DNA from: Ostreococcus lucimarinus
Taxonomy: Eukaryota
Assembly: GCA_000092065.1 (NCBI GenBank)
Contig: CP000591.1
DNA length: 64,000 bases
Direction: 5' to 3' (one strand)
Positions 3,001 to 36,495 of this stretch are shown in pieces (position 1 is the stretch's first letter; each line of letters opens with the position of its first letter). The notes below the pieces were generated by a model. The model saw only the letters and a program-made list of their open reading frames with translations. It was not told the origin of the DNA and ran no database searches. The position numbers and the translations under genes were made by a program.

Positions 3001-6000
3001 GCTGCGGAATTGAAGGCGCTTACCTCAGAATTGGCCTCCGTGAAAGAAGATCTTAAATACATCAGAGATATTGCAAAAGAAGAGCGTGATGAACAGATTC
3101 AGCGCATAGAATCTCTCATGTTAGAGGTTGATTCATTCGAAAACGCCAAATTTGATGGTGAAGAGGCAGTACGCTTTAGAAACGAAGCAGCGAAGCTTCG
3201 AGGGATGAAAATTCGGTTGGAAGCTGAGCTCAAGTTGAGTCAAGATCTCGCAGAGACAGCGAGCAGCGAACTGGCTCGAGCTCGCGAAGAGCACGATGTC
3301 GTCATCACGCAGTTGAGTGAAGAAATAGCAGCTCTTGAACTCGACATCACAGTTAAATCTGAAGCGATCGAAAAGTTGGAGTCAAAGACGAATAATATTG
3401 AGGTCAAGTTGGGCTCCGATCTTGAGAGCGCGTTAGCAAAACTGAACACCACGCTCGAAGAACTCGATAAAAAGTCCACGGATTTTGCATCTCTTGAAAG
3501 CGCATCGGTTGAACAAAAGCGAAACTTTGAGAAGCACGTGGACGAGCTTGAAAAGCGCCTGGGTGCTTCCGAGGCTGAAGTGCAAAGATTGATACAAGAT
3601 AGAGATCTGGCTATTGAGGCCAAAGACAACGAAATGGTTTCGAAAATTCTTTCGCAGTCCGCTATCGTGTCCGATCTCGAGTCTGAGCGCGACGCGCTGC
3701 GTTCGCAGCTCGCCGACCTTTCGTCCGCTCGCGACTCTGAGCTGGCGTCTGTGCGCGCGGATCTTGAGTCCCAGCTTCGCGAGCGCGAGGAGGACATCGA
3801 GCGCGTGCGTTCTGAGCTCGACGAGTCCAAGGCGGCACTTGAGTCTGAGCGCGACGCGCTGCAGTCGGAGCTCGAGCGCGTGCTTTCTCAGGTGCCCGAG
3901 GTTGACGCGTCGCAGTCCGCTATCGTGTCCGATCTCGAGTCTGAGCGCGACGCGCTGCGTTCGCAGCTCGCCGACCTTTCGTCCGCTCGCGACTCTGAGT
4001 TGGCGTCTGTGCGCGCGGATCTTGAGTCCCAGCTTCGCGAGCGCGAGGAGGACATCGAGCGCGTGCGTTCTGAGCTCGACGAGTCCAAGGCGGCACTTGA
4101 GTCTGAGCGCGACGCGCTGCAGTCGGAGCTCGAGCGCGTGCTTTCTCAGGTGCCCGAGGTTGACGCGTCGCAGTCCGCTGCCGTGTCCGATCTCGAGTCT
4201 GAGCGCGACGCGCTGCGTTCGCAGCTCGCCGACCTTTCGTCCGCTCGCGACTCTGAGTTGGCGTCTGTGCGCGCGGATCTTGAGTCCCAGCTTCGCGAGC
4301 GCGAGGAGGACATCGAGCGCGTGCGTTCTGAGCTCGACGAGTCCAAGGCGGCACTTGAGTCTGAGCGCGACGCGCTGCAGTCGGAGCTCGAGCGCGTGCT
4401 TTCTCAGGTGCCCGAGGTTGACGCGTCGCAGTCCGCTATCGTGTCCGATCTCGAGTCTGAGCGCGACGCGCTGCGTTCGCAGCTCGCCGACCTTTCGTCC
4501 GCTCGCGACTCTGAGTTGGCGTCTGTGCGCGCGGATCTTGAGTCCCAGCTTCGCGAGCGCGAGGAGGACATCGAGCGCGTGCGTTCTGAGCTCGACGAGT
4601 CCAAGGCGGCACTTGAGTCTGAGCGCGACGCGCTGCAGTCGGAGCTCGAGCGCGTGCTTTCTCAGGTGCCCGAGGTTGACGCGTCGCAGTCCGCTGCCGT
4701 GTCCGATCTCGAGTCTGAGCGCGACGCGCTGCGTTCGCAGCTCGCCGACCTTTCGTCCGCTCGCGACTCTGAGTTGGCGTCTGTGCGCGCGGATCTTGAG
4801 TCCCAGCTTCGCGAGCGCGAGGAGGACATCGAGCGCGTGCGTTCTGAGCTCGACGAGTCCAAGGCGGCACTTGAGTCTGAGCGCGACGCGCTGCAGTCGG
4901 AGCTCGAGCGCGTGCTTTCTCAGGTGCCCGAGGTTGACGCGTCGCAGTCCGCTATCGTGTCCGATCTCGAGTCTGAGCGCGACGCGCTGCGTTCGCAGCT
5001 CGCCGACCTTTCGTCCGCTCGCGACTCTGAGTTGGCGTCTGTGCGCGCGGATCTTGAGTCCCAGCTTCGCGAGCGCGAGGAGGACATCGAGCGCGTGCGT
5101 TCTGAGCTCGACGAGTCCAAGGCGGCACTTGAGTCTGAGCGCGACGCGCTGCAGTCGGAGCTCGAGCGCGTGCTTTCTCAGGTGCCCGAGGTTGACGCGT
5201 CGCAGTCCGCTGCCGTGTCCGATCTCGAGTCTGAGCGCGACGCGCTGCGTTCGCAGCTCGCCGACCTTTCGTCCGCTCGCGACTCTGAGTTGGCGTCTGT
5301 GCGCGCGGATCTTGAGTCCCAGCTTCGCGAGCGCGAGGAGGACATCGAGCGCGTGCGTTCTGAGCTCGACGAGTCCAAGGCGGCACTTGAGTCTGAGCGC
5401 GACGCGCTGCAGTCGGAGCTCGAGCGCGTGCTTTCTCAGGTGCCCGAGGTTGACGCGTCGCAGTCCGCTGCCGTGTCCGATCTCGAGTCTGAGCGCGACG
5501 CGCTGCGTTCGCAGCTCGCCGACCTTTCGTCCGCTCGCGACTCTGAGTTGGCGTCTGTGCGCGCGGATCTTGAGTCCCAGCTTCGCGAGCGCGAGGAGGA
5601 CATCGAGCGCGTGCGTTCTGAGCTCGACGAGTCCAAGGCGGCACTTGAGTCTGAGCGCGACGCGCTGCAGTCGGAGCTCGAGCGCGTGCTTTCTCAGGTG
5701 CCCGAGGTTGACGCGTCGCAGTCCGCTGCCGTGTCCGATCTCGAGTCTGAGCGCGACGCGCTGCGTTCGCAGCTCGCCGACCTTTCGTCCGCTCGCGACT
5801 CTGAGTTGGCGTCTGTGCGCGCGGATCTTGAGTCCCAGCTTCGCGAGCGCGAGGAGGACATCGAGCGCGTGCGTTCTGAGCTCGACGAGTCCAAGGCGGC
5901 ACTTGAGTCTGAGCGCGACGCGCTGCAGTCGGAGCTCGAGCGCGTGCTTTCTCAGGTGCCCGAGGTTGACGCGTCGCAGTCCGCTGCCATGTCCGATCTC

Positions 6001-9000
6001 GAGTCTGAGCGCGACGCGCTGCGTTCGCAGCTCTCTGAGCTTCGTCAAATGTCCTCCGAATCCATCGCAGGACTCCAGCAGCAATTAGTCGCATTTTCGG
6101 CGGAGGCGGACTCTGCGGCTTCCTTGAGAAAAACAGTTAAAGAGTTGAAGGCAACTATCAGACAGCGCGAAAATTTGCTTTCTGAAACGGTGTTCGATCC
6201 GATGTTGAATGATGACTTGGACCGTATGAACGATGAGCTTGCATCGAAGAGTGCGGAACTAGATTCTGCACGGACGAAGTTGCAGTCGACTCTTAATAAG
6301 TTAAAAGAACGCGAGGAGCAGGCTGAATCTTCGCAAGCTGTTGCAAGTGCTGTCATAGATGAGATCCGCGCCGAGCTTTTGAATGCAAACGAAAAGTTGG
6401 CTGCTCGTGAGTCATACGCCAACGCTGTTGAGTTGGCGCTGCGGTCAGAACTCACAGAAAGAGAGAAAGAAATTGCGCTTTTGCGTGTCAAGGTAGCTAA
6501 AATTCTCGATGACAGCACGAACAAGCAGACAAGTCTCACCACTGCGCTCGATTCTGCGCAGTCTGAGATTGAGCGCCTCACTCGCGAGCTCGAGGATGTT
6601 GAGCAGAGCAAGCAAGTGGCCATGAAGGAGTCATTTGAGCGCAACGAATCGCAGATTGCGTCTCTGAACGCCGCGCACCGCGAGTTGGATCAGCGCCTGC
6701 GAGACGAGCTCGACGCGGCGCTCAAAGCGAAGGCAAGTCTTGAGAAGGAGCTCAGCGACCGCGCGGAATCCACCGCTGCTACCGAAACAGCGAAGCGCAA
6801 CGCCGAAGCACTGAGCGAAAGCTTGCAATCGCAGCTTGATGCACTGTCCACGCAGCGTGCTGAGCTCGAGCAGCGGCTGGTCAAGCGCGAGGAGGAGCTC
6901 GTCGCTGAGCTTGACGCAGCCAAGCATGAAGCCACAGCGCAGGCCGCACGTTTTGCACAACTTGGCGAGGCGGCCTCAGATCACGCACACGACGAGGTTG
7001 ATAAACTTAAGTCCGAAGTGGAACGACTCGAGTTTGAGCTCGGCGCTGTGAAAAACGAGCTGACAAGCGCGACGTCGACTGCGAAAGCGGACATTGCGAG
7101 GCTTACGGATGAACTTGCAAGCGCCAGCGCCGCGCGAGACGCCGTGGCTGAAACCGCTCATCCAGAAGAAGACGGGTCATCGGAGTCCGCATCGGCGTTC
7201 GAAGCCATGAGACGCGACATGACTCGTCTCGAGTCGGAGCTTGCCGCCGCTCTCGCGGAGCTTGCGGAGCTCGAATCGCCTCGCGAGTCAGAGTCCTCAG
7301 ATACTGAAGCTATTCGCGAGTTCACCACTGCGCTCGATTCTGCGCAGTCTGAGATTGAGCGCCTCACTCGCGAGCTCGAGGATGTTGAGCAGAGCAAGCA
7401 AGTGGCCATGAAGGAGTCATTTGAGCGCAACGAATCGCAGATTGCGTCTCTGAACGCCGCGCACCGCGAGTTGGATCAGCGCCTGCGAGACGAGCTCGAC
7501 GCGGCGCTCAAAGCGAAGGCAAGTCTTGAGGAGCGCAGCGACCGCGCGGAATCCACCGCTGCTACCGAAACAGCGAAGCGCAACGCCGAAGCACTGAGCG
7601 AAAGCTTGCAATCGCAGCTTGATGCACTGTCCACGCAGCGTGCTGAGCTCGAGCAGCGGCTAGTCAAGCGCGAGGAGGAGCTCGTCGCTGAGCTTGACGC
7701 AGCCAAGCATGAAGCCACAGCGCAGGCCGCACGTTTTGCACAACTTGGCGAGGCGGCCTCAGATCACGCACACGACGAGGTTGATAAACTTAAGTCCGAA
7801 GTGGAACGACTCGAGTTTGAGCTCGGCGCTGTGAAAAACGAGCTGACAAGCGCGACGTCGACTGCGAAAGCGGACATTGCGAGGCTTACGGATGAACTTG
7901 CAAGCGCCAGCGCCGCGCGAGACGCCGTGGCTGAAACCGCTCATCCAGAAGAAGACGGGTCATCGGAGTCCGCATCGGCGTTCGAAGCCATGAGACGCGA
8001 CATGACTCGTCTCGAGTCGGAGCTTGCCGCCGCTCTCGCGGAGCTTGCGGAGCTCGAATCGCCTCGCGAGTCAGAGTCCTCAGATACTGAAGCTATTCGC
8101 GAGTTCACCACTGCGCTCGATTCTGCGCAGTCTGAGATTGAGCGCCTCACTCGCGAGCTCGAGGATGTTGAGCAGAGCAAGCAAGTGGCCATGAAGGAGT
8201 CATTTGAGCGCAACGAATCGCAGATTGCGTCTCTGAACGCCGCGCACCGCGAGTTGGATCAGCGCCTGCGAGACGAGCTCGACGCGGCGCTCAAAGCGAA
8301 GGCAAGTCTTGAGAAGGAGCGCAGCGACCGCGCGGAATCCACCGCTGCTACCGAAACAGCGAAGCGCAACGCCGAAGCACTGAGCGAAAGCTTGCAATCG
8401 CAGCTTGATGCACTGTCCACGCAGCGTGCTGAGCTCGAGCAGCGGCTAGTCAAGCGCGAGGAGGAGCTCGTCGCTGAGCTTGACGCAGCCAAGCATGAAG
8501 CCACAGCGCAGGCCGCACGTTTTGCACAACTTGGCGAGGCGGCCTCAGATCACGCACACGACGAGGTTGATAAACTTAAGTCCGAAGTGGAACGACTCGA
8601 GTTTGAGCTCGGCGCTGTGAAAAACGAGCTGACAAGCGCGACGTCGACTGCGAAAGCGGACATTGCGAGGCTTACGGATGAACTTGCAAGCGCCAGCGCC
8701 GCGCGAGACGCCGTGGCTGAAACCGCTCATCCAGAAGAAGACGGGTCATCGGAGTCTGCATCGGCGTTCGAAGCCATGAGACGCGACATGACTCGTCTCG
8801 AGTCGGAGCTTGCCGCCGCTCTCGCGGAGCTTGCGGAGCTCGAATCGCCTCGCGAGTCAGAGTCCTCAGATACTGAAGCTATTCGCGAGTTCACCACTGC
8901 GCTCGATTCTGCGCAGTCTGAGATTGAGCGCCTCACTCGCGAGCTCGAGGATGTTGAGCAGAGCAAGCAAGTGGCCATGAAGGAGTCATTTGAGCGCAAC

Positions 9001-10632
9001 GAATCGCAGATTGCGTCTCTGAACGCCGCGCACCGCGAGTTGGATCAGCGCCTGCGAGACGAGCTCGACGCGGCGCTCAAAGCGAAGGCAAGTCTTGAGA
9101 AGGAGCTCAGCGACCGCGCGGAATCCACCGCTGCTACCGAAATAGCGAAGCGCAACGCCGAAGCACTGAGCGAAAGCTTGCAATCGCAGCTTGATGCTTC
9201 TCGCGCTGAAGAGGCGAAGCTCCGTGATGAGCTCAATCATTTTCAGGAGCTTGCACGAGAGGAGATTTCAGCACTCCATAATGAAATTACCGAAATAAAA
9301 TTCACGTCGCAAGAAAGTCAAGCGTCGCTTGGAGAATCACCGTGGCCGAGTATCACAATTTCCACCCTTGCGGGTCTTAACGAGATGATGTCTCGGGGAT
9401 CTGAATTCGGGAGTGAAGGCTTAGATTGGCTTGAGCACGCCGCACACGAAGTACAAGCGCTTGAAAAGTCCGTGTTGGATGCGACGGCTGAGCTCGAGTT
9501 ACGAGAGAATGAATATGAACAAACTATTGCACAGTTGCAAGATAGTGTTCGTGACGCGGAAACTGACCTCAACTCGCAGAAGAGTCTGGCTAGCGCAGCT
9601 TTGAGCGACGTCGAGCATCTGAATGATAAATTGGCCGAACGCGATGAGGAGCTGGCATCACTCCGGCTCGAACTCGCGAACTTGGTTTCAGATGACGTCA
9701 CACGCGAGCTTGAATTAACGATCAGTAATTTGAGGATACAGCTGACCGCAAAAGATAACGAGTTGAATGGAGCTGTCGCGTCGTTGAATGATTTGGAAAA
9801 CGACAAGAGAGCTATAGAAGAAGCAATGTCCGAACTACAAGCTGCAGCTGACATGCAAGCAGCTCGAGTGCAAACATCGATTGAGCAAATATCAAGTTTG
9901 AATGTTGAGCTGGCCAAGCGCTCTGCAGCTCTTGATGCTAGTTGGGATAATCTTTCTCACGCTGAATCACGCGCACGTTTTGCCGAGCAAGAGCGAGACG
10001 ACGTTCGCCGGCTTTTTGAGGAGCGACTTGCTGTGAAAGAGCGAGCACTACGCGAGACACAAGGAGATGTTGAACATCTTCGTCAGACGGTGCGTAATCT
10101 TCAGGATAAATTGAAAGCACATAGATATGCACGTTCTGAGACCGAAGCTGGTCATCCAGAAGAAGACGGGTCATCGGAGTCTGCATCGGCGTTCGAAGCC
10201 ATGAGACGCGACATGACTCGTCTCGAGTCGGAGCTTGCCGCCGCTCTCGCGGAGCTTGCGGAGCTCGAATCGCCTCGCGAGTCAGAGTCCTCAGATACTG
10301 AAGCTATTCGCGAGTTCACCACTGCGCTCGATTCTGCGCAGTCTGAGATTGAGCGCCTCACTCGCGAGCTCGAGGATGTTGAGCAGAGCAAGCAAGTGGC
10401 CATGAAGGAGTCATTTGAGCGCAACGAATCGCAGATTGCGTCTCTGAACGCCGCGCACCGCGAGTTGGATCAGCGCCTGCGAGACGAGCTCGACGCGGCG
10501 CTCAAAGCGAAGGCAAGTCTTGAGAAGGAGCTCAGCGACCGCGCGGAATCCACCGCTGCTACCGAAACAGCGAAGCGCAACGCCGAAGCACTGAGCGAAA
10601 GCTTGCAATCGCAGCTTGATGGAAAAACTTGA
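1..10632 (+). CDS. Giant coiled-coil repeat protein, 5' portion. The frame-1 ORF is open from the window edge, so the gene is truncated at its 5' end. It carries N-terminal hydrophobic segments and long heptad-rich repeats, and ends at a 1-nt frame break that probably joins it to the 10619..17740 ORF.
   Basis: There is no stop in frame 1 from nt 1. The start at 25 in the ORF track is a GTG, so the ORF continues upstream. Translation is E/L/R/A/S/Q-rich with heptad periodicity, as expected for coiled coil. It contains the 258-bp and about 783-bp in-frame tandem repeat arrays. The same repeat units continue in frame in the downstream ORF. Confidence 0.8.
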   Translation, partial: AAAIGSSSVIFGTALALKVIPRPMMQVLAILLASTVAPLLGVYVEELRLHRTSTRRTRLMILSDCSLYGSWDAVAGTVAWACAFNQSADAFGPALAQSSFVAFIVAAACRWMRAMYVLYVIDHWIIQTVAAMSQEFTETVSRATVVVMEEVSRAPIVVKETVSRVSVAIAETVTQTPDVVSHNDESPQPVAEPKMHERSDNNEAAVASVKMRVAREPQPVVMESAPSSDAAPVAGESVSVTQQPDERRIEYAPPYTAVIREQDPRPEPPRVVYAPAFVVVEEASTSSSTESDVTQPLESKRRRRQRKRQYRRRESLAKNTIDMSEIVSKEVNIALNMGVSIEAELQRMLDRRQSTLNDMKNQQANPISIAQVEADIAALRAELRRATTSREQFQRAQTSYESDLEMWMESIRAAAAVSRLDYAIDSLKNASVADDPQVKELIDQRAVWGLRLVSSQIFTIVELQDSLDSGEARSSARIAELRGAIESLELKLTRLQEEKTQSVDNRILLEDRLQKLNLEIDSVRERERVAQEDWQRERLRLEVELEASVKELQTATRTVDDALKAKLELLAKLQTAQDQSDTDAEAIRRLEHETETLQTKLKSLTEQLSVANASVEQINSRRFDLESQLRAKATELDLANANRADTSLVEELRRQVKNLSTEICWLRDQKSREGSEAEAVLQKQLAEARTQLEIQRNELEIEAKAEISELKRSMDVIREEMERLTSEMSEKTEKSLEYQRIVQERQKEIESLTKNKELAARAIDESKKNLAQAQEALETKQKALDDRVSQVASLSLDLAASEEKTLTLERELSASCQRSQELEELISSLRSYSESRDALLADIDLLLGNENDEREAMLRGSKNASDLVERIQKRLRREVVLEKKLDQAQLLEQVGLTVEELKTREAASLWWKDLVQIGSKALETIQSTAVDLSKGTVTASLLERSISLRAKELQNITSEPQYQRLQKSFNDLKRLSEAAERKLQEKERKIKSLKADSKESAAELKALTSELASVKEDLKYIRDIAKEERDEQIQRIESLMLEVDSFENAKFDGEEAVRFRNEAAKLRGMKIRLEAELKLSQDLAETASSELARAREEHDVVITQLSEEIAALELDITVKSEAIEKLESKTNNIEVKLGSDLESALAKLNTTLEELDKKSTDFASLESASVEQKRNFEKHVDELEKRLGASEAEVQRLIQDRDLAIEAKDNEMVSKILSQSAIVSDLESERDALRSQLADLSSARDSELASVRADLESQLREREEDIERVRSELDESKAALESERDALQSELERVLSQVPEVDASQSAIVSDLESERDALRSQLADLSSARDSELASVRADLESQLREREEDIERVRSELDESKAALESERDALQSELERVLSQVPEVDASQSAAVSDLESERDALRSQLADLSSARDSELASVRADLESQLREREEDIERVRSELDESKAALESERDALQSELERVLSQVPEVDASQSAIVSDLESERDALRSQLADLSSARDSELASVRADLESQLREREEDIERVRSELDESKAALESERDALQSELERVLSQVPEVDASQSAAVSDLESERDALRSQLADLSSARDSELASVRADLESQLREREEDIERVRSELDESKAALESERDALQSELERVLSQVPEVDASQSAIVSDLESERDALRSQLADLSSARDSELASVRADLESQLREREEDIERVRSELDESKAALESERDALQSELERVLSQVPEVDASQSAAVSDLESERDALRSQLADLSSARDSELASVRADLESQLREREEDIERVRSELDESKAALESERDALQSELERVLSQVPEVDASQSAAVSDLESERDALRSQLADLSSARDSELASVRADLESQLREREEDIERVRSELDESKAALESERDALQSELERVLSQVPEVDASQSAAVSDLESERDALRSQLADLSSARDSELASVRADLESQLREREEDIERVRSELDESKAALESERDALQSELERVLSQVPEVDASQSAAMSDLESERDALRSQLSELRQMSSESIAGLQQQLVAFSAEADSAASLRKTVKELKATIRQRENLLSETVFDPMLNDDLDRMNDELASKSAELDSARTKLQSTLNKLKEREEQAESSQAVASAVIDEIRAELLNANEKLAARESYANAVELALRSELTEREKEIALLRVKVAKILDDSTNKQTSLTTALDSAQSEIERLTRELEDVEQSKQVAMKESFERNESQIASLNAAHRELDQRLRDELDAALKAKASLEKELSDRAESTAATETAKRNAEALSESLQSQLDALSTQRAELEQRLVKREEELVAELDAAKHEATAQAARFAQLGEAASDHAHDEVDKLKSEVERLEFELGAVKNELTSATSTAKADIARLTDELASASAARDAVAETAHPEEDGSSESASAFEAMRRDMTRLESELAAALAELAELESPRESESSDTEAIREFTTALDSAQSEIERLTRELEDVEQSKQVAMKESFERNESQIASLNAAHRELDQRLRDELDAALKAKASLEERSDRAESTAATETAKRNAEALSESLQSQLDALSTQRAELEQRLVKREEELVAELDAAKHEATAQAARFAQLGEAASDHAHDEVDKLKSEVERLEFELGAVKNELTSATSTAKADIARLTDELASASAARDAVAETAHPEEDGSSESASAFEAMRRDMTRLESELAAALAELAELESPRESESSDTEAIREFTTALDSAQSEIERLTRELEDVEQSKQVAMKESFERNESQIASLNAAHRELDQRLRDELDAALKAKASLEKERSDRAESTAATETAKRNAEALSESLQSQLDALSTQRAELEQRLVKREEELVAELDAAKHEATAQAARFAQLGEAASDHAHDEVDKLKSEVERLEFELGAVKNELTSATSTAKADIARLTDELASASAARDAVAETAHPEEDGSSESASAFEAMRRDMTRLESELAAALAELAELESPRESESSDTEAIREFTTALDSAQSEIERLTRELEDVEQSKQVAMKESFERNESQIASLNAAHRELDQRLRDELDAALKAKASLEKELSDRAESTAATEIAKRNAEALSESLQSQLDASRAEEAKLRDELNHFQELAREEISALHNEITEIKFTSQESQASLGESPWPSITISTLAGLNEMMSRGSEFGSEGLDWLEHAAHEVQALEKSVLDATAELELRENEYEQTIAQLQDSVRDAETDLNSQKSLASAALSDVEHLNDKLAERDEELASLRLELANLVSDDVTRELELTISNLRIQLTAKDNELNGAVASLNDLENDKRAIEEAMSELQAAADMQAARVQTSIEQISSLNVELAKRSAALDASWDNLSHAESRARFAEQERDDVRRLFEERLAVKERALRETQGDVEHLRQTVRNLQDKLKAHRYARSETEAGHPEEDGSSESASAFEAMRRDMTRLESELAAALAELAELESPRESESSDTEAIREFTTALDSAQSEIERLTRELEDVEQSKQVAMKESFERNESQIASLNAAHRELDQRLRDELDAALKAKASLEKELSDRAESTAATETAKRNAEALSESLQSQLDGKT
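408..545 (+). repeat. Imperfect 33-39 bp coding mini-repeats encoding E(T/E)VSRA.(V/I)VV, about 4 units
   Basis: Direct reading shows acagagacggtgtcgcgagcgaccgttgtcgtt / gaagtttcgcgagcgccgatcgtcgtt / acagtttcgcgagtttctgtcgcgatt. Translation shows ETVSRATVVV / EEVSRAPIVV / ETVSRVSVAI. Confidence 0.5.
3652..6033 (+). repeat. Tandem array of about 9.2 copies of a 258-bp (86-aa) in-frame coding repeat, here called repeat A. Copies are more than 99% identical.
   Basis: The period of 258 nt was read directly; for example tccgct(a/g)(t/c)cgtgtccgatctcgagtctgagcgcgacgcgctgcg recurs at 3659, 3917, 4175, 4433 and so on. Each unit encodes SQSA(I/A)VSDLESERDALRSQLADLSSARDSELASVRADLESQLREREEDIERVRSELDESKAALESERDALQSELERVLSQVPEVDA. 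Copies differ only by an atc/gcc (I/A) codon, and the last copy has A->M. Confidence 0.9.
6538..9190 (+). repeat. Tandem array of about 3.4 copies of a 783-786 bp (261/262-aa) in-frame coding repeat, here called repeat B
   Basis: Unit starts (accactgcgctcgattctgcgcagtctgagattgagcgc) lie at about 6538, 7324, 8107 and 8893. Copies are near-identical apart from an in-frame 3-nt indel (KELSDR versus EERSDR/KERSDR) and T/I substitutions. The array ends where the sequence diverges after cagcttgatgc at about 9190. Confidence 0.85.
10150..10619 (+). repeat. Partial copy of repeat B (about 470 bp, the 3' 60% of a unit), separated from the main B array by about 960 bp of unique coding sequence
   Basis: catccagaagaagacgggtcatcggagtc ... 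gcttgcaatcgcagcttgatg is nearly identical to 7157-7626, 7940-8409 and 8723-9192. Confidence 0.8.
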
Positions 10633-13600
10633 GTCATTGCGCCGTGAGCACGAAACAAAACTGAACGACATGCGTGAGTCTGCAACACAACAACGCGCGG
10701 ATCTTGAGTCCCAGCTTCGCGAGCGCGAGGAGGACATCGAGCGCGTGCGTTCTGAGCTCGACGAGTCCAAGGCGGCACTTGAGTCTGAGCGCGACGCGCT
10801 GCAGTCGGAGCTCGAGCGCGTGCTTTCTCAGGTGTCTGAGTCTGAGTCTCTGCAGTCCGCTGCCGTGTCCGATCTCGAGTCTGAGCGCGACGCGCTGCGT
10901 TCGCAGCTCGCCGACCTTTCGTCCGCTCGCGACTCTGAGTTGGCGTCTGTGCGCGCGGATCTTGAGTCCCAGCTTCGCGAGCGCGAGGAGGACATCGAGC
11001 GCGTGCGTTCTGAGCTCGACGAGTCCAAGGCGGCACTTGAGTCTGAGCGCGACGCGCTGCAGTCGGAGCTCGAGCGCGTGCTTTCTCAGGTGTCTGAGTC
11101 TGAGTCTCTGCAGTCCGCTGCCGTGTCCGATCTCGAGTCTGAGCGCGACGCGCTGCGTTCGCAGCTCGCCGACCTTTCGTCCGCTCGCGACTCTGAGTTG
11201 GCGTCTGTGCGCGCGGATCTTGAGTCCCAGCTTCGCGAGCGCGAGGAGGACATCGAGCGCGTGCGTTCTGAGCTCGACGAGTCCAAGGCGGCACTTGAGT
11301 CTGAGCGCGACGCGCTGCAGTCGGAGCTCGAGCGCGTGCTTTCTCAGGTGTCTGAGTCTGAGTCTCTGCAGTCCGCTGCCGTGTCCGATCTCGAGTCTGA
11401 GCGCGACGCGCTGCGTTCGCAGCTCGCCGACCTTTCGTCCGCTCGCGACTCTGAGTTGGCGTCTGTGCGCGCGGATCTTGAGTCCCAGCTTCGCGAGCGC
11501 GAGGAGGACATCGAGCGCGTGCGTTCTGAGCTCGACGAGTCCAAGGCGGCACTTGAGTCTGAGCGCGACGCGCTGCAGTCGGAGCTCGAGCGCGTGCTTT
11601 CTCAGGTGTCTGAGTCTGAGTCTCTGCAGTCCGCTGCCGTGTCCGATCTCGAGTCTGAGCGCGACGCGCTGCGTTCGCAGCTCGCCGACCTTTCGTCCGC
11701 TCGCGACTCTGAGTTGGCGTCTGTGCGCGCGGATCTTGAGTCCCAGCTTCGCGAGCGCGAGGACGACATCGAGCGCGTGCGTTCTGAGCTCGACGAGTCC
11801 AAGGCGGCACTTGAGTCTGAGCGCGACGCGCTGCAGTCGGAGCTCGAGCGCGTGCTTTCTCAGGTGCCCGAGGTTGACGCGTCGCAGTCCGCTGCCGTGT
11901 CCGATCTCGAGTCTGAGCGCGACGCGCTGCGTTCGCAGCTCGCCGACCTTTCGTCCGCTCGCGACTCTGAGTTGGCGTCTGTGCGCGCGGATCTTGAGTC
12001 CCAGCTTCGCGAGCGCGAGGAGGACATCGAGCGCGTGCGTTCTGAGCTCGACGAGTCCAAGGCGGCACTTGAGTCTGAGCGCGACGCGCTGCAGTCGGAG
12101 CTCGAGCGCGTGCTTTCTCAGGTGCCCGAGGTTGACGCGTCGCAGTCCGCTGCCGTGTCCGATCTCGAGTCTGAGCGCGACGCGCTGCGTTCGCAGCTCG
12201 CCGACCTTTCGTCCGCTCGCGACTCTGAGTTGGCGTCTGTGCGCGCGGATCTTGAGTCCCAGCTTCGCGAGCGCGAGGAGGACATCGAGCGCGTGCGTTC
12301 TGAGCTCGACGAGTCCAAGGCGGCACTTGAGTCTGAGCGCGACGCGCTGCAGTCGGAGCTCGAGCGCGTGCTTTCTCAGGTGCCCGAGGTTGACGCGTCG
12401 CAGTCCGCTGCCGTGTCCGATCTCGAGTCTGAGCGCGACGCGCTGCGTTCGCAGCTCGCCGACCTTTCGTCCGCTCGCGACTCTGAGTTGGCGTCTGTGC
12501 GCGCGGATCTTGAGTCCCAGCTTCGCGAGCGCGAGGAGGACATCGAGCGCGTGCGTTCTGAGCTCGACGAGTCCAAGGCGGCACTTGAGTCTGAGCGCGA
12601 CGCGCTGCAGTCGGAGCTCGAGCGCGTGCTTTCTCAGGTGCCCGAGGTTGACGCGTCGCAGTCCGCTGCCGTGTCCGATCTCGAGTCTGAGCGCGACGCG
12701 CTGCGTTCGCAGCTCGCCGACCTTTCGTCCGCTCGCGACTCTGAGTTGGCGTCTGTGCGCGCGGATCTTGAGTCCCAGCTTCGCGAGCGCGAGGAGGACA
12801 TCGAGCGCGTGCGTTCTGAGCTCGACGAGTCCAAGGCGGCACTTGAGTCTGAGCGCGACGCGCTGCAGTCGGAGCTCGAGCGCGTGCTGGGAGAGTTGAG
12901 TCAGTCGACTTCGGCGCTTCGGCGCGTTGAGGAGGATCTCAATGCCGCTTTAAGCGACCGCGATGAGTTCGAAGAAGAGAGTGATCGTTTGCGTCGGCGT
13001 CTACCACGACTTGAACGAGAGCATAACGAGTTGGAGGATGCAATGCGCTTGGAAATGGACGAATTGGCTTCAAAGCTTGCAGCGATGTCAAAAGCGCGCG
13101 ATGATCTCGAGAAGGACATGATTGAGCAGAGTGATGGTCTGTACAAGGCACTTGGCAGTAGCCGCGAGGATCTGCAGCGAGAACTAAACGAGGGCAAGAA
13201 GTTACTTGCTCAACGTGAGGCCGAGCTAAAGCGTTTAACTGCCGATTTTTCGTTGAAAGAGCACGCAATTGAGTCTGAGCGAGAAGCACTTGCGACCGAA
13301 TTGGATCGACTGATACACAAGGTGCCAGCCTTGGAGTTGACTACGGCTGAACTAGAGGCTGAACGCGCGGAGTTGCGCGAAAAGCTTGATGATTTGATAG
13401 CAAATCGTGATCAGCTGGCGGCCAATCTGCGAACCGAGAACGATTCGATGTCAGCAGAACTGTCCATGACTCGAGAAGCTCTTGATGAACAATTCAATGC
13501 CGTTACAACACAGCTCCTTGAAACCGATGAGATCATCGACAAGATGCGCAAGGATAACGAAGCTGCAAAGGAAGCAGCAGAGAACGACCGCTTAGCGCTA

Positions 13601-16600
13601 CAAGGTGAGCTTGAGCGCGTGGTGTCGGAATCAAATAAGCTGCGGGCAGCTCAAGCCACGGCCGAGTCTCTTCTACGCGCAGAGCGTGATGATCTCGAAG
13701 ACAAGGTCGAAAAACTTGAGTCATTGCGCCGTGAGCACGAAACAAAACTGAACGACATGCGTGAGTCTGCAACACAACAACGCGCGGATCTTGAGTCCCA
13801 GCTTCGCGAGCGCGAGGAGGACATCGAGCGCGTGCGTTCTGAGCTCGACGAGTCCAAGGCGGCACTTGAGTCTGAGCGCGACGCGCTGCAGTCGGAGCTC
13901 GAGCGCGTGCTTTCTCAGGTGTCTGAGTCTGAGTCTCTGCAGTCCGCTGCCGTGTCCGATCTCGAGTCTGAGCGCGACGCGCTGCGTTCGCAGCTCGCCG
14001 ACCTTTCGTCCGCTCGCGACTCTGAGTTGGCGTCTGTGCGCGCGGATCTTGAGTCCCAGCTTCGCGAGCGCGAGGAGGACATCGAGCGCGTGCGTTCTGA
14101 GCTCGACGAGTCCAAGGCGGCACTTGAGTCTGAGCGCGACGCGCTGCAGTCGGAGCTCGAGCGCGTGCTTTCTCAGGTGCCCGAGGTTGACGCGTCGCAG
14201 TCCGCTGCCGTGTCCGATCTCGAGTCTGAGCGCGACGCGCTGCGTTCGCAGCTCGCCGACCTTTCGTCCGCTCGCGACTCTGAGTTGGCGTCTGTGCGCG
14301 CGGATCTTGAGTCCCAGCTTCGCGAGCGCGAGGAGGACATCGAGCGCGTGCGTTCTGAGCTCGACGAGTCCAAGGCGGCACTTGAGTCTGAGCGCGACGC
14401 GCTGCAGTCGGAGCTCGAGCGCGTGCTGGGAGAGTTGAGTCAGTCGACTTCGGCGCTTCGGCGCGTTGAGGAGGATCTCAATGCCGCTTTAAGCGACCGC
14501 GATGAGTTCGAAGAAGAGAGTGATCGTTTGCGTCGGCGTCTACCACGACTTGAACGAGAGCATAACGAGTTGGAGGATGCAATGCGCTTGGAAATGGACG
14601 AATTGGCTTCAAAGCTTGCAGCGATGTCAAAAGCGCGCGATGATCTCGAGAAGGACATGATTGAGCAGAGTGATGGTCTGTACAAGGCACTTGGCAGTAG
14701 CCGCGAGGATCTGCAGCGAGAACTAAACGAGGGCAAGAAGTTACTTGCTCAACGTGAGGCCGAGCTAAAGCGTTTAACTGCCGATTTTTCGTTGAAAGAG
14801 CACGCACTTGAGTCTGAGCGAGAAGCACTTGCGACCGAATTGGATCGACTGATACACAAGGTGCCAGCCTTGGAGTTGACTGCGGCTGAACTAGAGGCTG
14901 AACGCGCGGAGTTGCGCGAAAAGCTTGATGATTTGATAGCAAATCGTGATCAGCTGGCGGCCAATCTGCGAACCGAGAACGATTCGATGTCAGCAGAACT
15001 GTCCATGACTCGAGAAGCTCTTGATGAACAATTCAATGCCGTTACAACACAGCTCCTTGAAACCGATGAGATCATCGACAAGATGCGCAAGGATAACGAA
15101 GCTGCAAAGGAAGCAGCAGAGAACGACCGCTTAGCGCTACAAGGTGAGCTTGAGCGCGTGGTGTCGGAATCAAATAAGCTGCGGGCAGCTCAAGCCACGG
15201 CCGAGTCTCTTCTACGCGCAGAGCGTGATGATCTCGAAGACAAGGTCGAAAAACTTGAGTCATTGCGCCGTGAGCACGAAACAAAACTGAACGACGTGCG
15301 TGAGTCTGCAACACAACAACGCGCGGATCTTGAGTCCCAGCTTCGCGAGCGCGAGGAGGACATCGAGCGCGTGCGTTCTGAGCTCGACGAGTCCAAGGCG
15401 GCACTTGAGTCTGAGCGCGACGCGCTGCAGTCGGAGCTCGAGCGCGTGCTTTCTCAGGTGTCTGAGTCTGAGTCTCTGCAGTCCGCTGCCGTGTCCGATC
15501 TCGAGTCTGAGCGCGACGCGCTGCGTTCGCAGCTCGCCGACCTTTCGTCCGCTCGCGACTCTGAGTTGGCGTCTGTGCGCGCGGATCTTGAGTCCCAGCT
15601 TCGCGAGCGCGAGGAGGACATCGAGCGCGTGCGTTCTGAGCTCGACGAGTCCAAGGCGGCACTTGAGTCTGAGCGCGACGCGCTGCAGTCGGAGCTCGAG
15701 CGCGTGCTTTCTCAGGTGTCTGAGTCTGAGTCTCTGCAGTCCGCTGCCGTGTCCGATCTCGAGTCTGAGCGCGACGCGCTGCGTTCGCAGCTCGCCGACC
15801 TTTCGTCCGCTCGCGACTCTGAGTTGGCGTCTGTGCGCGCGGATCTTGAGTCCCAGCTTCGCGAGCGCGAGGAGGACATCGAGCGCGTGCGTTCTGAGCT
15901 CGACGAGTCCAAGGCGGCACTTGAGTCTGAGCGCGACGCGCTGCAGTCGGAGCTCGAGCGCGTCATGGACGACGTTCTGAACGCAGAAGCGCTTGCGGAG
16001 CAAGCTGAGCTTATACGCTCGCAGATGCAGGCGGACATGGAGCAACTTGTTGAAGCGCGACAAAGTGTTGAGCAGCGTTTGCAGGATGTGGACAGTGCTC
16101 TTCAGATTTCTTTGAACAAGGTTGCCACGCTTGAGATTGAGCAAGAAAGATTGCGACTCGAACTCTCCGCTTCCGAGAAAGCCTTAGCCGAAAGTGAACG
16201 TGCTAGGTCAGAATCAGACGCAGAAATTCTGGCGCTTAGCGACGAGCTGTCGGACGCTTTGAATGCACGGTTACTTATTGAGCAACGACTTCGTGCGCGC
16301 GACGAGGAACTGGAGACCGCGCGCATCAAACAATCTGAATTAATTACGGAGAATTCAAAGCTCCGAGCTGAACTCATGGATGCCAAAGCAATGGCAGACG
16401 ATTACACTCGGCAGTTGTCTTCAGGGCTATTCGGCGATGAAAAGCGTGTCGAGGCTGGAATTCAACGATTTGACTCTTTCGAGGCGTCGGACACTGGTAT
16501 ATTTGCCACAGACGAAGCAGACGAAGCTTTCGTGACCGCCTGCAATATGGTGCAACGAATTGAAATCTTAGTTCGTCGACAAAAGCAAACGGGCGAAGAA

Positions 16601-17740
16601 TTAAAGCGACTAGATGACACTGGCGCGGCTGAATCAGACGATGCGCGCTTATTGCGCTCCGAGCTCGCCGCTATGGGTTCTCAACTCGACTCGTGCAGAG
16701 AAACTCTCGCTGCGTGCTCGCACGGTCTCAGCGTGCTTGAATCGCGCATGGCCGAAGAATTCGCGGCGATGGGCAAGTCGCCAATGTTCGCAGAAGGCAT
16801 GGACACTACTCGCAGTCGCGTACGCGATCTAGAAAAGTCACTCGCGGCGGCGAATGCCCAGTCCGACGTCACCTTCAAGAATCTGCAAATCGCGCTCGAC
16901 GCATCGACGATGGATGTCGGAAGGGATATTCCTGTCGAGTTTAAAATCCCGTTTCAATCAATCCCAGGACAACGTATTTTAGTCGTTGGTACTTGGTGCG
17001 ATTGGATCACTCAAAACGGCTTGCAGTTGACGTGGACCGAGGGGAACATATGGAAAGGCACGATGACACTGCACACAGGCTCAAATTACGAGTACAAGTA
17101 CGTCGTTGTGGAGGAAGTCCTCGGCGGAGTGCCTGGGGAAGCACCGCCGTACTTTCCGCCCTGGGGCACAACCGAGCCAAAGATTGAGCAGATGTTCGAC
17201 GGACGGGCGTACATGCTCGTCTGGCAGCCAGGAAACAACAAGGCGATGGCGCTCGACAACATTCACACGGATGGCGTCGCGCAAATTAAAGTTTCAGACG
17301 ACTGGATCGCCAATCCCAAGAAATCACCGATCACACTCTTCGCCGCGGATGGAGAAGTGCTTGAGATCGTCGGCTCGACGGCACTGCTCGGTGAAACGGT
17401 CGATCGCGCCGATCACGCCCTCGCCGAGGCTCGAAAGCAAGTCCAAATGATGGCCGACTTGGCGAGCGCCGCGTTGGCTGAAGTCGATACCCAGCTCGCG
17501 AGACGAATCGCCACGCAACTGGACGATATTCGTCACAAAGGAACTTTGTCTACCGACAGCGACGGTAAGCATCACCGTGGAACAAAGGCGCTTCCCTCGA
17601 GCGTTGAGGCCGGCTCGCCAAGGTCTAATCTTAACTGGATGAATATTGGATTCGGGTTGGAAGCCCAAGACGATGGCGAAGATTCAACATCGGCTTCGAC
17701 TGACGCGGAAGACGCCGGCGATGGCATCGACTACGCGTAA
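10619..17740 (+). CDS. Giant coiled-coil repeat protein, 3' portion. It contains more repeat-A arrays, two 1539-bp higher-order repeats, unique coiled-coil sequence and a C-terminal CBM20-like starch-binding domain. It is probably the same gene as 1..10632.
   Basis: The ORF is in frame 2 to a TAA at 17738-17740. Its first codons (gaaaaacttgagtcattgcgccgtgagcacgaa) are homologous to 13710-13745 and 15249-15284, which are internal to the repeat. The C-terminus has a CBM20-like motif. Convergent 3' ends follow. Confidence 0.8.
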   Translation: MEKLESLRREHETKLNDMRESATQQRADLESQLREREEDIERVRSELDESKAALESERDALQSELERVLSQVSESESLQSAAVSDLESERDALRSQLADLSSARDSELASVRADLESQLREREEDIERVRSELDESKAALESERDALQSELERVLSQVSESESLQSAAVSDLESERDALRSQLADLSSARDSELASVRADLESQLREREEDIERVRSELDESKAALESERDALQSELERVLSQVSESESLQSAAVSDLESERDALRSQLADLSSARDSELASVRADLESQLREREEDIERVRSELDESKAALESERDALQSELERVLSQVSESESLQSAAVSDLESERDALRSQLADLSSARDSELASVRADLESQLREREDDIERVRSELDESKAALESERDALQSELERVLSQVPEVDASQSAAVSDLESERDALRSQLADLSSARDSELASVRADLESQLREREEDIERVRSELDESKAALESERDALQSELERVLSQVPEVDASQSAAVSDLESERDALRSQLADLSSARDSELASVRADLESQLREREEDIERVRSELDESKAALESERDALQSELERVLSQVPEVDASQSAAVSDLESERDALRSQLADLSSARDSELASVRADLESQLREREEDIERVRSELDESKAALESERDALQSELERVLSQVPEVDASQSAAVSDLESERDALRSQLADLSSARDSELASVRADLESQLREREEDIERVRSELDESKAALESERDALQSELERVLGELSQSTSALRRVEEDLNAALSDRDEFEEESDRLRRRLPRLEREHNELEDAMRLEMDELASKLAAMSKARDDLEKDMIEQSDGLYKALGSSREDLQRELNEGKKLLAQREAELKRLTADFSLKEHAIESEREALATELDRLIHKVPALELTTAELEAERAELREKLDDLIANRDQLAANLRTENDSMSAELSMTREALDEQFNAVTTQLLETDEIIDKMRKDNEAAKEAAENDRLALQGELERVVSESNKLRAAQATAESLLRAERDDLEDKVEKLESLRREHETKLNDMRESATQQRADLESQLREREEDIERVRSELDESKAALESERDALQSELERVLSQVSESESLQSAAVSDLESERDALRSQLADLSSARDSELASVRADLESQLREREEDIERVRSELDESKAALESERDALQSELERVLSQVPEVDASQSAAVSDLESERDALRSQLADLSSARDSELASVRADLESQLREREEDIERVRSELDESKAALESERDALQSELERVLGELSQSTSALRRVEEDLNAALSDRDEFEEESDRLRRRLPRLEREHNELEDAMRLEMDELASKLAAMSKARDDLEKDMIEQSDGLYKALGSSREDLQRELNEGKKLLAQREAELKRLTADFSLKEHALESEREALATELDRLIHKVPALELTAAELEAERAELREKLDDLIANRDQLAANLRTENDSMSAELSMTREALDEQFNAVTTQLLETDEIIDKMRKDNEAAKEAAENDRLALQGELERVVSESNKLRAAQATAESLLRAERDDLEDKVEKLESLRREHETKLNDVRESATQQRADLESQLREREEDIERVRSELDESKAALESERDALQSELERVLSQVSESESLQSAAVSDLESERDALRSQLADLSSARDSELASVRADLESQLREREEDIERVRSELDESKAALESERDALQSELERVLSQVSESESLQSAAVSDLESERDALRSQLADLSSARDSELASVRADLESQLREREEDIERVRSELDESKAALESERDALQSELERVMDDVLNAEALAEQAELIRSQMQADMEQLVEARQSVEQRLQDVDSALQISLNKVATLEIEQERLRLELSASEKALAESERARSESDAEILALSDELSDALNARLLIEQRLRARDEELETARIKQSELITENSKLRAELMDAKAMADDYTRQLSSGLFGDEKRVEAGIQRFDSFEASDTGIFATDEADEAFVTACNMVQRIEILVRRQKQTGEELKRLDDTGAAESDDARLLRSELAAMGSQLDSCRETLAACSHGLSVLESRMAEEFAAMGKSPMFAEGMDTTRSRVRDLEKSLAAANAQSDVTFKNLQIALDASTMDVGRDIPVEFKIPFQSIPGQRILVVGTWCDWITQNGLQLTWTEGNIWKGTMTLHTGSNYEYKYVVVEEVLGGVPGEAPPYFPPWGTTEPKIEQMFDGRAYMLVWQPGNNKAMALDNIHTDGVAQIKVSDDWIANPKKSPITLFAADGEVLEIVGSTALLGETVDRADHALAEARKQVQMMADLASAALAEVDTQLARRIATQLDDIRHKGTLSTDSDGKHHRGTKALPSSVEAGSPRSNLNWMNIGFGLEAQDDGEDSTSASTDAEDAGDGIDYA
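10690..12886 (+). repeat. Second repeat-A array, about 8.5 copies of the 258-bp unit: four copies of a SQVSESESLQSAAVSD variant followed by four or five copies of the SQVPEVDASQSAAVSD variant
   Basis: The same 258-bp period is present. Variant-specific tgtctgagtctgagtctctgcag appears at 10833, 11091, 11349 and 11607. The gtgcccgaggttgacgcgtcgcag variant appears at 11865, 12123, 12381 and 12639. One copy has a gaggacgac (E->D) change at about 11761. Confidence 0.9.
12887..15963 (+). repeat. Two tandem copies of a 1539-bp (513-aa) higher-order coding repeat, here called repeat C. Each copy is about 900 bp of unique coiled-coil sequence plus 2.5 repeat-A units.
   Basis: ctgggagagttgagtcagtcgacttcggcgcttcggcgcgttgaggag occurs at 12887 and 14426, a spacing of 1539. 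The copies differ by only a few substitutions (T/A, I/L, M/V). A partial third copy (the 3' end of the unique part plus a repeat-A array) begins at 10620. Confidence 0.9.
16927..17250 (+). other. CBM20-like (CBM20/48-superfamily) starch- or glucan-binding domain at the C-terminus of the giant coiled-coil protein
   Basis: Translation reads IPVEFKIPFQSIPGQRILVVGTWCDWITQNGLQLTWTEGNIWKGTMTLHTGSNYEYKYVVVEE. It carries the conserved CBM20 pattern V.F.....GQ.v.vvG....W......L.W....W...l.l..g...EYKyv. Confidence 0.6.
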
Positions 17741-18552: not shown

Positions 18553-18578
18553 CTGAATGACGGCGTAACGTCTTCGCG

Positions 18579-36455: not shown

Positions 36456-36495
<40 letters not shown>

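What the first reader, a model, noticed from the sequence alone, without database searches (positions are those of the whole stretch)
10612..10632. Single-nucleotide frame break exactly at a repeat junction splits the giant gene
The partial repeat-B copy ends ...caatcgcagcttgatg and is followed by gaaaaacttgagtcattgcgc, the tail of the repeat-C unique part. Without the extra g the junction would read CAG CTT GAT GAA AAA CTT GAG (QLDEKLE) and the 1..10632 and 10619..17740 ORFs would be one continuous frame. As written, a TGA follows after 4 codons. A 1-nt indel at a junction between more than 99%-identical repeats is the classic signature of an assembly or polishing error, or less likely a very recent pseudogenising mutation.
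Basis: seen in the sequence. Interest (0 to 1): 0.6.

Follow-up and report, generated by a model that had tools for sequence, protein, structure and literature searches.

The report
Frame break inside one giant starch-binding gene
The frame break is real in this sequence, but it is an ordinary defect in one giant alga gene: two different repeat blocks are butted together where wild relatives carry several more kilobases of coding DNA. It is either an assembly fault or a strain-specific deletion, not a designed split.

Summary
Frame 1 runs from base 1 to a TGA at 10630-10632. Frame 2 is open from ATG 10619 to 17740. Deleting G10621 gives one 5,912-codon frame.

The window is Ostreococcus lucimarinus CCE9901. 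The two ORFs are halves of one gene of at least 6,020 codons: an N-terminal membrane anchor, a huge repetitive coiled coil and a C-terminal CBM20 starch-binding domain. A related genome encodes it as a single 4,091-aa ORF. Wild conspecific contigs carry continuous ORFs of up to 4,988 aa ending in the same C-terminus.

The 'extra g' is not extra relative to either parent repeat. G10621 is the first base of the Ala codon that follows GAT in every other B copy, and GAAAAA starts the C-unit tail. The joint is blunt, between codon phase 1 and phase 0.

An independent long-read contig (L024) carries the same post-D B copy. After GATG it continues into more B sequence, a 0.6-kb unique segment missing from the window, an A array and a full C unit, all in one ORF. 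So this looks like a deletion-type joint, not a stray base in an intact gene.

Whether the joint exists in the living strain or only in the assembly cannot be decided without reads; I put it at about even. Nothing supports recoding, an intron or two designed genes. Interest is low.

The parts
1..10632 (+). ORF1 (frame 1), cut at its 5' end by the window. It encodes the N-terminal membrane anchor plus coiled coil and ends QSQLDGKT*. The true start lies 109 codons upstream of the window.
   Evidence: The N-terminus is seen in P0050.
10619..17740 (+). ORF2 (frame 2, +1 relative to ORF1), 2,373 codons from an ATG that is an out-of-frame triplet present in every B copy. It encodes coiled-coil repeats plus the C-terminal unique region.
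10621..10622 (+). The joint. G10621 is the last base of B-type homology and the first base of B's Ala codon. G10622 is the first base of the C-unit tail (codon GAA). The join is blunt, with no microhomology used, between codon phase 1 and phase 0.
10630..10632 (+). TGA that ends frame 1. It is the CTT GAG of the C tail read out of frame.
10595..10629 (+). Stretch open in both frames. The frame-2 stop upstream is at 10592-10594. Loss of any single base between here and the TGA at 10630-10632 would fuse the ORFs.
3652..6033 (+). A array: a 258-nt unit (86 aa), 9.2 copies, 99% matches.
6529..9196 (+). B array with a period of 783/786 nt. The unit is b1 (470 nt) plus b2 (316 nt). The last copy (B4) is b1 only. 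The only length variant is an in-frame 3-nt deletion in copy 2.
9197..10151 (+). D, a single-copy coiled-coil segment. It is 41% identical to aa 2792-3084 of P0051.
10152..10621 (+). b1', the B-type module after D. It matches B4 at 469 of 470 bases and L024 2826-3295 at 99.8%.
10622..10693 (+). C tail: the last 72 nt of a C unit, without the 820 nt that precede it in every full C unit.
10694..12888 (+). A' array, 8.5 copies: four S-type units then four P-type units.
12889..15963 (+). Two higher-order units, each an 892-nt C unique part plus about 2.5 A' units. The period is 1,539 nt.
15964..17740 (+). C-terminal unique region. The CBM20 starch-binding domain lies at about 16928-17116.
   Evidence: Pfam PF00686, 32.6 bits against a cut-off of 23.3. 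It is 99.9-100% identical in wild contigs.

Best explanation
ORF1 and ORF2 are one gene of Ostreococcus lucimarinus CCE9901, at least 6,020 codons long. The protein has a polytopic N-terminal membrane anchor, a giant hierarchically repeated coiled coil and a C-terminal CBM20 starch-binding domain.

The frame break at 10621/10622 is the scar of a deletion-type joint. The end of a B-type module (b1', ...CAG CTT GAT G) is joined bluntly to the last 72 nt of a C unit (GAA AAA CTT GAG...). The left end stops one base into a codon and the right end starts on a codon boundary, so everything downstream is shifted by +1. No base has been inserted.

Relative to wild relatives, the joint skips at least b2, a partial b1 and a 0.6-kb unique segment. 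It probably also skips an A array and one or two C units, several kb in all.

The split is not functional. If it is real, the strain makes a 3,652-aa anchor and coiled-coil fragment without the starch-binding end, and ORF2 is untranslated.

Shown here: the one-gene status, the anatomy of the joint and the missing sequence. Inferred: the direction of change (a deletion in this sequence). Undecided: whether the joint exists in the strain's DNA or only in the assembly. I put 'segments abutted with sequence missing' and 'real out-of-frame deletion allele' at about even. Adding the single-base-error rival, the frame break is artefactual with a probability of about 0.55 and real with about 0.4.
For: One gene:
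- P0051 is a single 4,091-aa ORF with the same anchor and CBM20. ORF1 segments map to its aa 207-3084 and ORF2 segments to aa 3279-4081, in order.
- P0050 and L009 give a single 2,421-aa ORF from the N-terminus to CBM20 in a repeat-collapsed contig of the same species.
- L012 has a 4,988-aa ORF that is open to the contig end and finishes in a 99.9% identical C-terminus.
- A units are read in the same phase in both ORFs.

Joint anatomy:
- All five B copies end in GATG. Both full C copies read GTC|GAAAAA. There is no shared sequence at the joint.

Missing sequence:
- The L024 alignment to window 7351-10621 stops exactly at 10621.
- L024 then continues GATG|CACTGTCC (b2), a partial b1, the unique segment E, 13 A units, a full C unit and the C tail. 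All of this lies inside one called ORF of 2,378 aa.
- E is absent from the window.
- In L012 the C tail in front of the equivalent S-S-P-P-P-P array is preceded by a full C unit.

Strain identity:
- The 395-aa protein encoded at 18579-19766 matches XP_001420240.1 exactly, and that sequence is recorded on a single contig.
- PRP8 is 100% identical.

Not a random base error:
- There is no frame-breaking indel in about 40 kb compared with 11 wild contigs.
Against: - L024 is a noisy long-read contig. Its PRP8 is broken into seven or more pieces. It is only about 96% identical to the window in unique flanks. Segment E could therefore be specific to its lineage, or its repeat path could be wrong.
- E has no clear counterpart in P0051.
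- P0051 has about 195 aa between D and the first A-like unit. That is close to the window's 180 aa, which would fit an old, short, in-frame arrangement.
- The L012 difference could also arise by unequal crossing-over between A units, and its held DNA does not reach the post-D region.
- The left breakpoint coincides, to within one base, with the point where B4 diverges into D. This is unlikely for a random deletion (roughly 1 in several hundred). It hints at an assembly cause or at an old module boundary.
- No read data, and no second assembly of this strain, could be examined.
Confidence: 0.66

Rival explanations
1. The b1'|C-tail contiguity is genuine and in frame in the organism (CTT GAT GAA AAA, with the G shared by both modules). 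The assembly carries one spurious G, from a consensus, stitching or polishing error. Less likely, a real and very recent 1-nt insertion sits at exactly that spot.
For: - Deleting one G gives a clean 5,912-codon frame.
- The in-frame version satisfies both parental repeats with a 1-nt overlap. Duplicating a shared base is what a stitch at a repeat boundary would produce.
- The left end lies at the natural end of b1 homology.
- P0051 has a similar spacing between D and the first A-like unit.
- ORF2 shows no secondary decay and is 99.9-100% identical to wild sequences in its unique part.
- The window carries one private homopolymer difference, A4 against A3, at 37429.
Against: - No independent sequence shows this contiguity. 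There were 0 hits for either form in JGI metagenome, viral or prokaryote collections, although the positive control also failed.
- The only contig that reaches the region (L024) continues differently.
- The window otherwise shows no frame-breaking indels over about 40 kb.
- GG is not a long homopolymer.
- A C tail lacking its 820-nt body is best explained as a truncated unit.
Confidence: 0.25
2. The split is designed. Either two proteins are made (anchor plus coiled coil, and coiled coil plus CBM20), with ORF2 starting at ATG 10619 by termination-reinitiation, or one protein is made by programmed +1 frameshifting at ACU UGA G.
For: - The ATG at 10619 lies 11 nt upstream of the ORF1 stop, and skipping the U of UGA puts the ribosome into ORF2.
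- CBM20-ending gene calls of 631-956 aa are seen in several related genomes.
Against: - The joint is absent from L024 and L012, and P0051 is a single ORF. The arrangement is therefore not conserved.
- The ATG is an out-of-frame triplet present in all B copies.
- ACU UGA G matches no known +1 shift site (my own knowledge).
- The RNA downstream folds no better than shuffled sequence, z = -0.11.
- Breaks in the related assemblies lie at different places inside error-ridden repeats.
- Reinitiation after a 3,652-codon ORF is not expected in a eukaryote.
Confidence: 0.03
3. A spliceosomal intron of 3n+1 nt removes the stop and restores the frame.
For: Ostreococcus genes can contain introns (PMC2367439). 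GT...AG pairs of a suitable length formally exist.
Against: - Only two GT donors (10378, 10396) have the right phase. Both have poor context, and both would remove more than 230 nt that is coding in the other B copies.
- Both flanks are >99% identical to sequence that is read as coding elsewhere in the same gene.
Confidence: 0.01

Closest known systems
Frame breaks and lost sequence at repeat boundaries in genome assemblies of giant repetitive genes
   Same: A single frame break lies exactly where two near-identical repeat families meet. The downstream frame is perfectly preserved. Other assemblies of the same gene are also broken, at other places (L013, L007, L008, L024).
   Different: The window is otherwise of high base accuracy. 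The two sides share no overlap that an overlap-based assembler could have used. The problem is not a homopolymer-length error inside a repeat.
Strain-specific loss-of-function deletion alleles (blunt end-joining deletions) in cultured microalgal strains
   Same: The joint is blunt and non-homologous. It removes internal coding sequence and shifts the frame. Orthologues and wild conspecifics are intact. The locus varies in structure between wild contigs.
   Different: The left breakpoint coincides with a module boundary. There is no read, transcript or phenotype evidence.
Plant starch-granule proteins that combine a coiled coil with a carbohydrate-binding module or membrane anchor (Arabidopsis PTST2/PTST3, MFP1, MRC/PII1; own knowledge)
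   Same: Long coiled coil plus a C-terminal starch- or glycogen-binding module, and a membrane anchor as in MFP1. The gene lies 11 kb from a starch phosphorylase gene. In L008 the orthologue lies next to a glucan-water-dikinase-like gene.
   Different: The module here is CBM20, not CBM48 (PF16561 scores 20.9, below its cut-off of 26.8). The protein is 10 to 20 times longer. No sequence homology outside the binding module was tested or claimed.
Programmed +1 ribosomal frameshifting (antizyme, RF2, Ty1)
   Same: ORF2 is in the +1 frame, and the ORF1 stop lies inside the overlap.
   Different: There is no known shift motif, no conservation and no stimulatory structure.

Membership tests
Single-base assembly or polishing indel | One base more or fewer than the homologous copies of the repeat | tested here: not met
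   Both flanks match their parental repeats to the last base. GATG occurs in all 5 B copies and GAAAAA in all 3 C tails.
Single-base assembly or polishing indel | Homopolymer context, and similar indel errors elsewhere in the same assembly | tested here: inconclusive
   The run is only GG. Over about 40 kb compared with 11 wild contigs, the one private 1-nt homopolymer difference is A4 against A3 at 37429, which is intergenic. All other indels are multiples of 3 or lie in low-complexity or intergenic DNA.
Single-base assembly or polishing indel | Raw reads disagree with the consensus | not testable with these tools
   No reads are available.
Deletion-type joint (real allele or assembly gap) | Related sequences carry additional sequence between the two joined ends | tested here: met
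   L024 continues from the same b1' into b2, a partial b1, unique segment E, an A array and a full C unit. L012 has a full C unit where the window has only the 72-nt tail.
Deletion-type joint (real allele or assembly gap) | The joined ends are non-homologous | tested here: met
   There is no similarity between B after GATG and C before GAAAAA. The breakpoint placement is unambiguous and uses zero microhomology.
Recent pseudogene or loss-of-function allele | Orthologues and conspecifics are intact across the region | tested here: met
   P0051 is a single 4,091-aa ORF. L012 has a 4,988-aa ORF. The L024 ORF of 2,378 aa spans the region.
Recent pseudogene or loss-of-function allele | The lesion is present in the organism's DNA and transcripts | not testable with these tools
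   There are no reads, and no second assembly of CCE9901 could be retrieved.
Programmed +1 ribosomal frameshift or coupled two-ORF design | The overlap and shift site are conserved in relatives | tested here: not met
   The joint is absent from L024 and L012, and P0051 is a single ORF.
Programmed +1 ribosomal frameshift or coupled two-ORF design | A stimulatory RNA structure lies downstream | tested here: not met
   Window 10633-10752 folds at -38.8 kcal/mol against a shuffle mean of -38.4, z = -0.11.
CBM20 starch-binding domain protein | Pfam PF00686 match above the gathering score | tested here: met
   32.6 bits against a cut-off of 23.3, at aa 323-385 of the C-terminal 592 aa. Homologues carry PF00686.

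The most novel reading that the evidence does not exclude
The GG joint is genuine in the living strain and the cell still produces the CBM20-bearing part. This would happen either by +1 recoding at ACU UGA G or by starting ORF2 at the ATG that overlaps the ORF1 stop. A giant tether would then have been converted into two separately made proteins.
Probability: 0.02. Interest if true: 0.7.

Novelty: new member of a known kind. Interest (0 to 1): 0.25.

Why it matters
For annotation, the two ORFs should be treated as one disrupted gene. Simply deleting the g would produce an open frame, but probably not the native protein. The locus needs re-sequencing with long accurate reads.

If the deletion is real, CCE9901 is a natural truncation mutant of a conserved, unannotated giant protein that joins a membrane anchor to a starch-binding domain. 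Comparing its single starch granule with wild strains would then be a cheap functional test.

The case also shows that all available assemblies of this gene disagree in repeat structure.

Tried and rejected
- Junction-bridging peptide search in the 5.8-billion-protein collection. It returned only two ordinary B-repeat fragments.
- D+b1' protein search. No hit, because the candidate list was saturated.
- Representative search with D+b1'. It gave P0051 and fragments from other species, but no conspecific long protein.
- DNA scans for the joint, in both G and GG forms, in JGI metagenomes, viral contigs and prokaryote genomes. All gave 0 hits. The control scan for the C tail in JGI metagenomes also gave 0, so these negatives say nothing.
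- Exact look-ups of ORF2 and of seven ORF1/ORF2 start variants. None is on record.
- Attempts to fetch the NCBI record through the PRP8 and 395-aa genes. These failed or returned short contigs.
- Look-up of an L013 piece to walk further upstream.
- L012 and L013 are good conspecific contigs, but the 10-kb flank limit stops short of the post-D region.
- Intron model, rejected.
- Frameshift-stimulating RNA structure, rejected.
- Homology of segment E, or of the joint, to P0051, L007 and L008. Only generic coiled-coil similarity was found.
- Literature searches for a re-assembly of CCE9901 or for this protein. Nothing relevant was found.
Full report
**1. Observation**

The sequence at 10606-10642 reads caatcgcagcttgatg|gaaaaacttgagtcattgcgc. 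Frame 1 is open from window base 1 and reads ...QSQLDGKT*, with TGA at 10630-10632. Frame 2 has a stop at 10592-10594. It is then open from TTG 10616 / ATG 10619 to 17740, which is 2,373 codons from the ATG. Deleting G10621 yields one 5,912-codon frame that reads QLDEKLE at the joint.

The two flanking motifs occur 5 and 3 times in the window, against about 0 expected by chance.

**2. What the gene is**

The window comes from a eukaryote. It encodes PRP8, starch phosphorylase, SF1, a MyTH4-FERM kinesin and other eukaryotic proteins.

- PRP8 is 100% identical over 2,320 aa to XP_001420401.1 of Ostreococcus lucimarinus CCE9901.
- The 395-aa protein encoded at 18579-19766 is an exact match to XP_001420240.1. 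That sequence is recorded on a single 593,542-nt contig, while wild variants differ from it.

So the window is CCE9901, either the reference or a re-assembly.

The gene starts 109 codons upstream of the window, as seen in P0050. It has several hydrophobic segments in its first ~230 residues. It ends in a CBM20 starch-binding domain (PF00686, 32.6 bits against a cut-off of 23.3).

Its architecture, is:

| Segment | Coordinates | Note |
|---|---|---|
| N-unique | 1-3651 | |
| A array | 3652-6033 | 258 nt x 9.2 |
| Spacer | 6034-6528 | unique sequence between the A and B arrays |
| B array | 6529-9196 | unit = b1 (470 nt) + b2 (316 nt); last copy is b1 only |
| D | 9197-10151 | unique |
| b1' | 10152-10621 | 469/470 identical to B4 |
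| C tail | 10622-10693 | last 72 nt of a C unit |
| A' array | 10694-12888 | 8.5 copies |
| Two higher-order units | 12889-15963 | each an 892-nt C body plus ~2.5 A' units |
| C-terminal unique region | 15964-17740 | contains CBM20 |

**3. One gene, not two**

- P0051, from a related genome, is a single 4,091-aa ORF with the same anchor and the same CBM20 end. Segments of ORF1 map to its aa 207-3084 and segments of ORF2 to aa 3279-4081, in order.
- P0050 (locus L009) is a single 2,421-aa ORF running from the N-terminus to CBM20. It comes from a short-read contig of the same species in which the repeats are collapsed.
- L012, a 550-kb JGI contig, is 99.9% identical in the C-terminal region. It carries a 4,988-aa ORF that stays open up to the contig end.
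- The A units give the same peptide in ORF1 and in ORF2.

**4. Anatomy of the joint**

An alignment of all copies shows that every B copy reads ...CAG CTT GAT G. In the other copies this is followed by CA or CT, giving an Ala codon. Both full C units read ...AAG GTC|GAA AAA CTT. B and C are unrelated on the far sides of the joint.

So G10621 belongs to B at codon position 1, and G10622 belongs to C at codon position 1. The breakpoint placement is unambiguous and uses no microhomology. The +1 shift follows from the phases of the two ends. Nothing is 'extra' relative to either parent. An in-frame product would need the two Gs to be merged, which amounts to 1 nt of microhomology.

**5. Comparison with other assemblies**

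Short-read metagenome contigs stop one k-mer into the A' array or collapse the repeats. Three long contigs are informative.

- **L012.** Its repeat barcode is ...PA PA PI S C Ct S C Ct SS PAx4 C Ct S PA C Ct SS END. The window's barcode is Ct SSSS PAx4 C Ct S PA C Ct SS END. The C tail in front of the equivalent array is preceded by a full C unit.
- **L013.** This contig is broken at two other places.
- **L024.** This is a 100.8-kb ENA contig. It is noisy, with PRP8 in fragments, and is about 96% identical to the window in unique flanks. It contains B units, D, and a b1' that is 99.8% identical to the window's.
  - Its alignment to window 7351-10621 ends exactly at 10621.
  - It then continues GATG|CACTGTCC, that is, into b2.
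  - After that come a partial b1, a ~0.6-kb unique coding segment 'E' (PHGASGDDEELRRQLHSALAAIEE...), 13 A units, a full C unit, the C tail, A' units and the C-terminus.
  - One called ORF of 2,378 aa spans b1' to the last A' unit.
  - E is absent from the window and from every other locus held.

Relative to these contigs, the window's joint skips at least 1.3 kb and probably several kb. A C tail without its 820-nt body is most simply read as a truncated unit. I therefore read 10621|10622 as a deletion-type joint, not as a stray base in a complete gene.

Caveats:
- L024 is noisy and is not the same strain.
- E has no clear counterpart in P0051.
- The spacing between D and the first A-like unit is similar in P0051 (~195 aa) and the window (180 aa).
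- The difference from L012 could come from unequal crossing-over alone.

**6. Real or artefact?**

In favour of high base accuracy: over about 40 kb compared with 11 wild contigs (99.5-99.8% identity), every indel is a multiple of three or lies in intergenic or low-complexity DNA. The exception is one private A4-versus-A3 difference at 37429, which is intergenic. There are no Ns in the window. No other gene in the window is frame-broken relative to the wild gene calls. This lowers the prior for a random polishing error.

Against an overlap-based misassembly: the two sides share nothing that an assembler could overlap.

In favour of an assembly-related cause:
- The left end falls, to within a base, at the point where b1 copies diverge into b2 or D. 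This is where a repeat consensus would naturally end. For a random deletion it would be a coincidence of about 1 in several hundred.
- The lesion breaks a gene that is intact in all relatives.
- ORF2 shows no secondary decay.

In favour of a real lesion:
- The locus varies in structure among wild contigs.
- Blunt joints are typical of end joining.
- A cultured strain may tolerate the loss.

I cannot decide between these. My estimates are:

| Scenario | Probability |
|---|---|
| Segments abutted in assembly or finishing, with sequence missing | ~0.33 |
| Real out-of-frame deletion allele | ~0.33 |
| Genuine in-frame joint plus a one-base error (or, rarely, a real 1-nt gain) | ~0.25 |
| Designed split or recoding | ~0.03 |
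| Intron | ~0.01 |
| Not assigned to any named scenario | ~0.05 |

**7. Rejected readings**

- **Intron.** Only two GT donors have the right phase. Both have poor context, and both would delete sequence that is coding in the other B copies.
- **Programmed +1 frameshift or reinitiation.**
  - The joint is not conserved.
  - The ATG is an out-of-frame triplet found in all B copies.
  - ACU UGA G matches no known shift site (own knowledge).
  - The downstream RNA has no unusual fold, z = -0.11.
- **A conserved two-gene layout.** The short CBM20-ending gene calls in related genomes sit next to error-ridden repeat sequence, and their breaks lie at different places.

**8. Comparison with what is known, and novelty**

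This is an ordinary kind of event. It is either an assembly defect in a nest of near-identical repeats or a strain-specific loss-of-function deletion. Neither is new in kind.

The protein itself appears to lack an annotated model. No NCBI or UniRef protein was returned for its C-terminus, and no source gives a name more specific than 'hypothetical protein'. It combines a membrane anchor, thousands of residues of coiled coil and a CBM20 domain. Functionally it resembles the plant starch-granule proteins PTST2/3, MFP1 and MRC (own knowledge). It is not a member of those families: the binding module is CBM20 rather than CBM48, and no further homology was tested.

**9. Verdict**

One gene and a defect: yes. 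A stray base in an intact gene: probably not.
- Interest is low (0.25).
- The practical message is that this locus needs long accurate reads. Deleting the g is not a safe fix.

Noticed in passing
window 1-17740; also P0051, L007, L008, L012, L013: The gene encodes a giant protein conserved across Ostreococcus-like genomes (4,091 to more than 6,000 aa). It has a polytopic N-terminal anchor, a hierarchically repeated coiled coil and a C-terminal CBM20. No source gives it a name more specific than 'hypothetical protein'. It may tether the single starch granule to a membrane.
   Followed up: partly
window 28771-31977 (-); L008 14553-17678: A starch phosphorylase gene lies 11 kb from the giant CBM20 gene. 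In the more distant relative L008 the orthologue sits next to a glucan-water-dikinase-like gene (GWD1_pHisD / PPDK_N). This suggests loose clustering with starch metabolism.
   Followed up: no
L012 (rc 1-9920), L013 (rc 1-9920), L024 1-11612, compared with window 10622-17740: Every long contig of this species has a different repeat layout, with 1, 2 or 4 C units and A arrays of 2 to at least 18 units. This is either extreme copy-number polymorphism or unresolved assembly of the locus.
   Followed up: partly
L024 4021-4635: A ~0.6-kb unique in-frame coiled-coil segment 'E' (PHGASGDDEELRRQLHSALAAIEE...) lies between the second B block and the A array. It is absent from the window and from all other loci held, and it has no clear counterpart in P0051.
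   Followed up: partly
window 37429: The window has GAAAATTTT where all 11 wild contigs have GAAATTTT. The site is 22 nt downstream of the stop of the Rad50/SbcC-like gene. It is the only private 1-nt homopolymer difference found in about 40 kb.
   Followed up: yes
window ~7520-7540 (B copy 2): B copy 2 carries an in-frame 3-nt deletion, and copies 2 and 3 carry a T>G change (LEKELSDR / LEERSDR / LEKERSDR). Length variation among B copies therefore respects the reading frame.
   Followed up: yes
L013 rc ~5932-5937 and ~7317-7640; L007 9380-9900; L024 PRP8 region 14629-21320: Other long-read assemblies of this gene or its neighbourhood carry their own frame breaks at different places. Some lie in visibly degraded repeat sequence, which is typical of consensus errors.
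   Followed up: partly
window 36440-36900 and 43695-43710: Low-complexity coding stretches (poly-Thr/KP in the SNM1/DRMBL-like gene) and a 5' gene end are indel hot spots between this strain and wild contigs. The net length changes are mostly multiples of three.
   Followed up: no
window 9197-10151 compared with B units: D begins and ends like b2 (ASRAEEAKLRDEL against ALSTQRAELEQRL; ETEAG|HPEEDG against VAETA|HPEEDG). D may be an old, diverged and expanded b2-type spacer. This would explain why b1 copies flank it on both sides.
   Followed up: no
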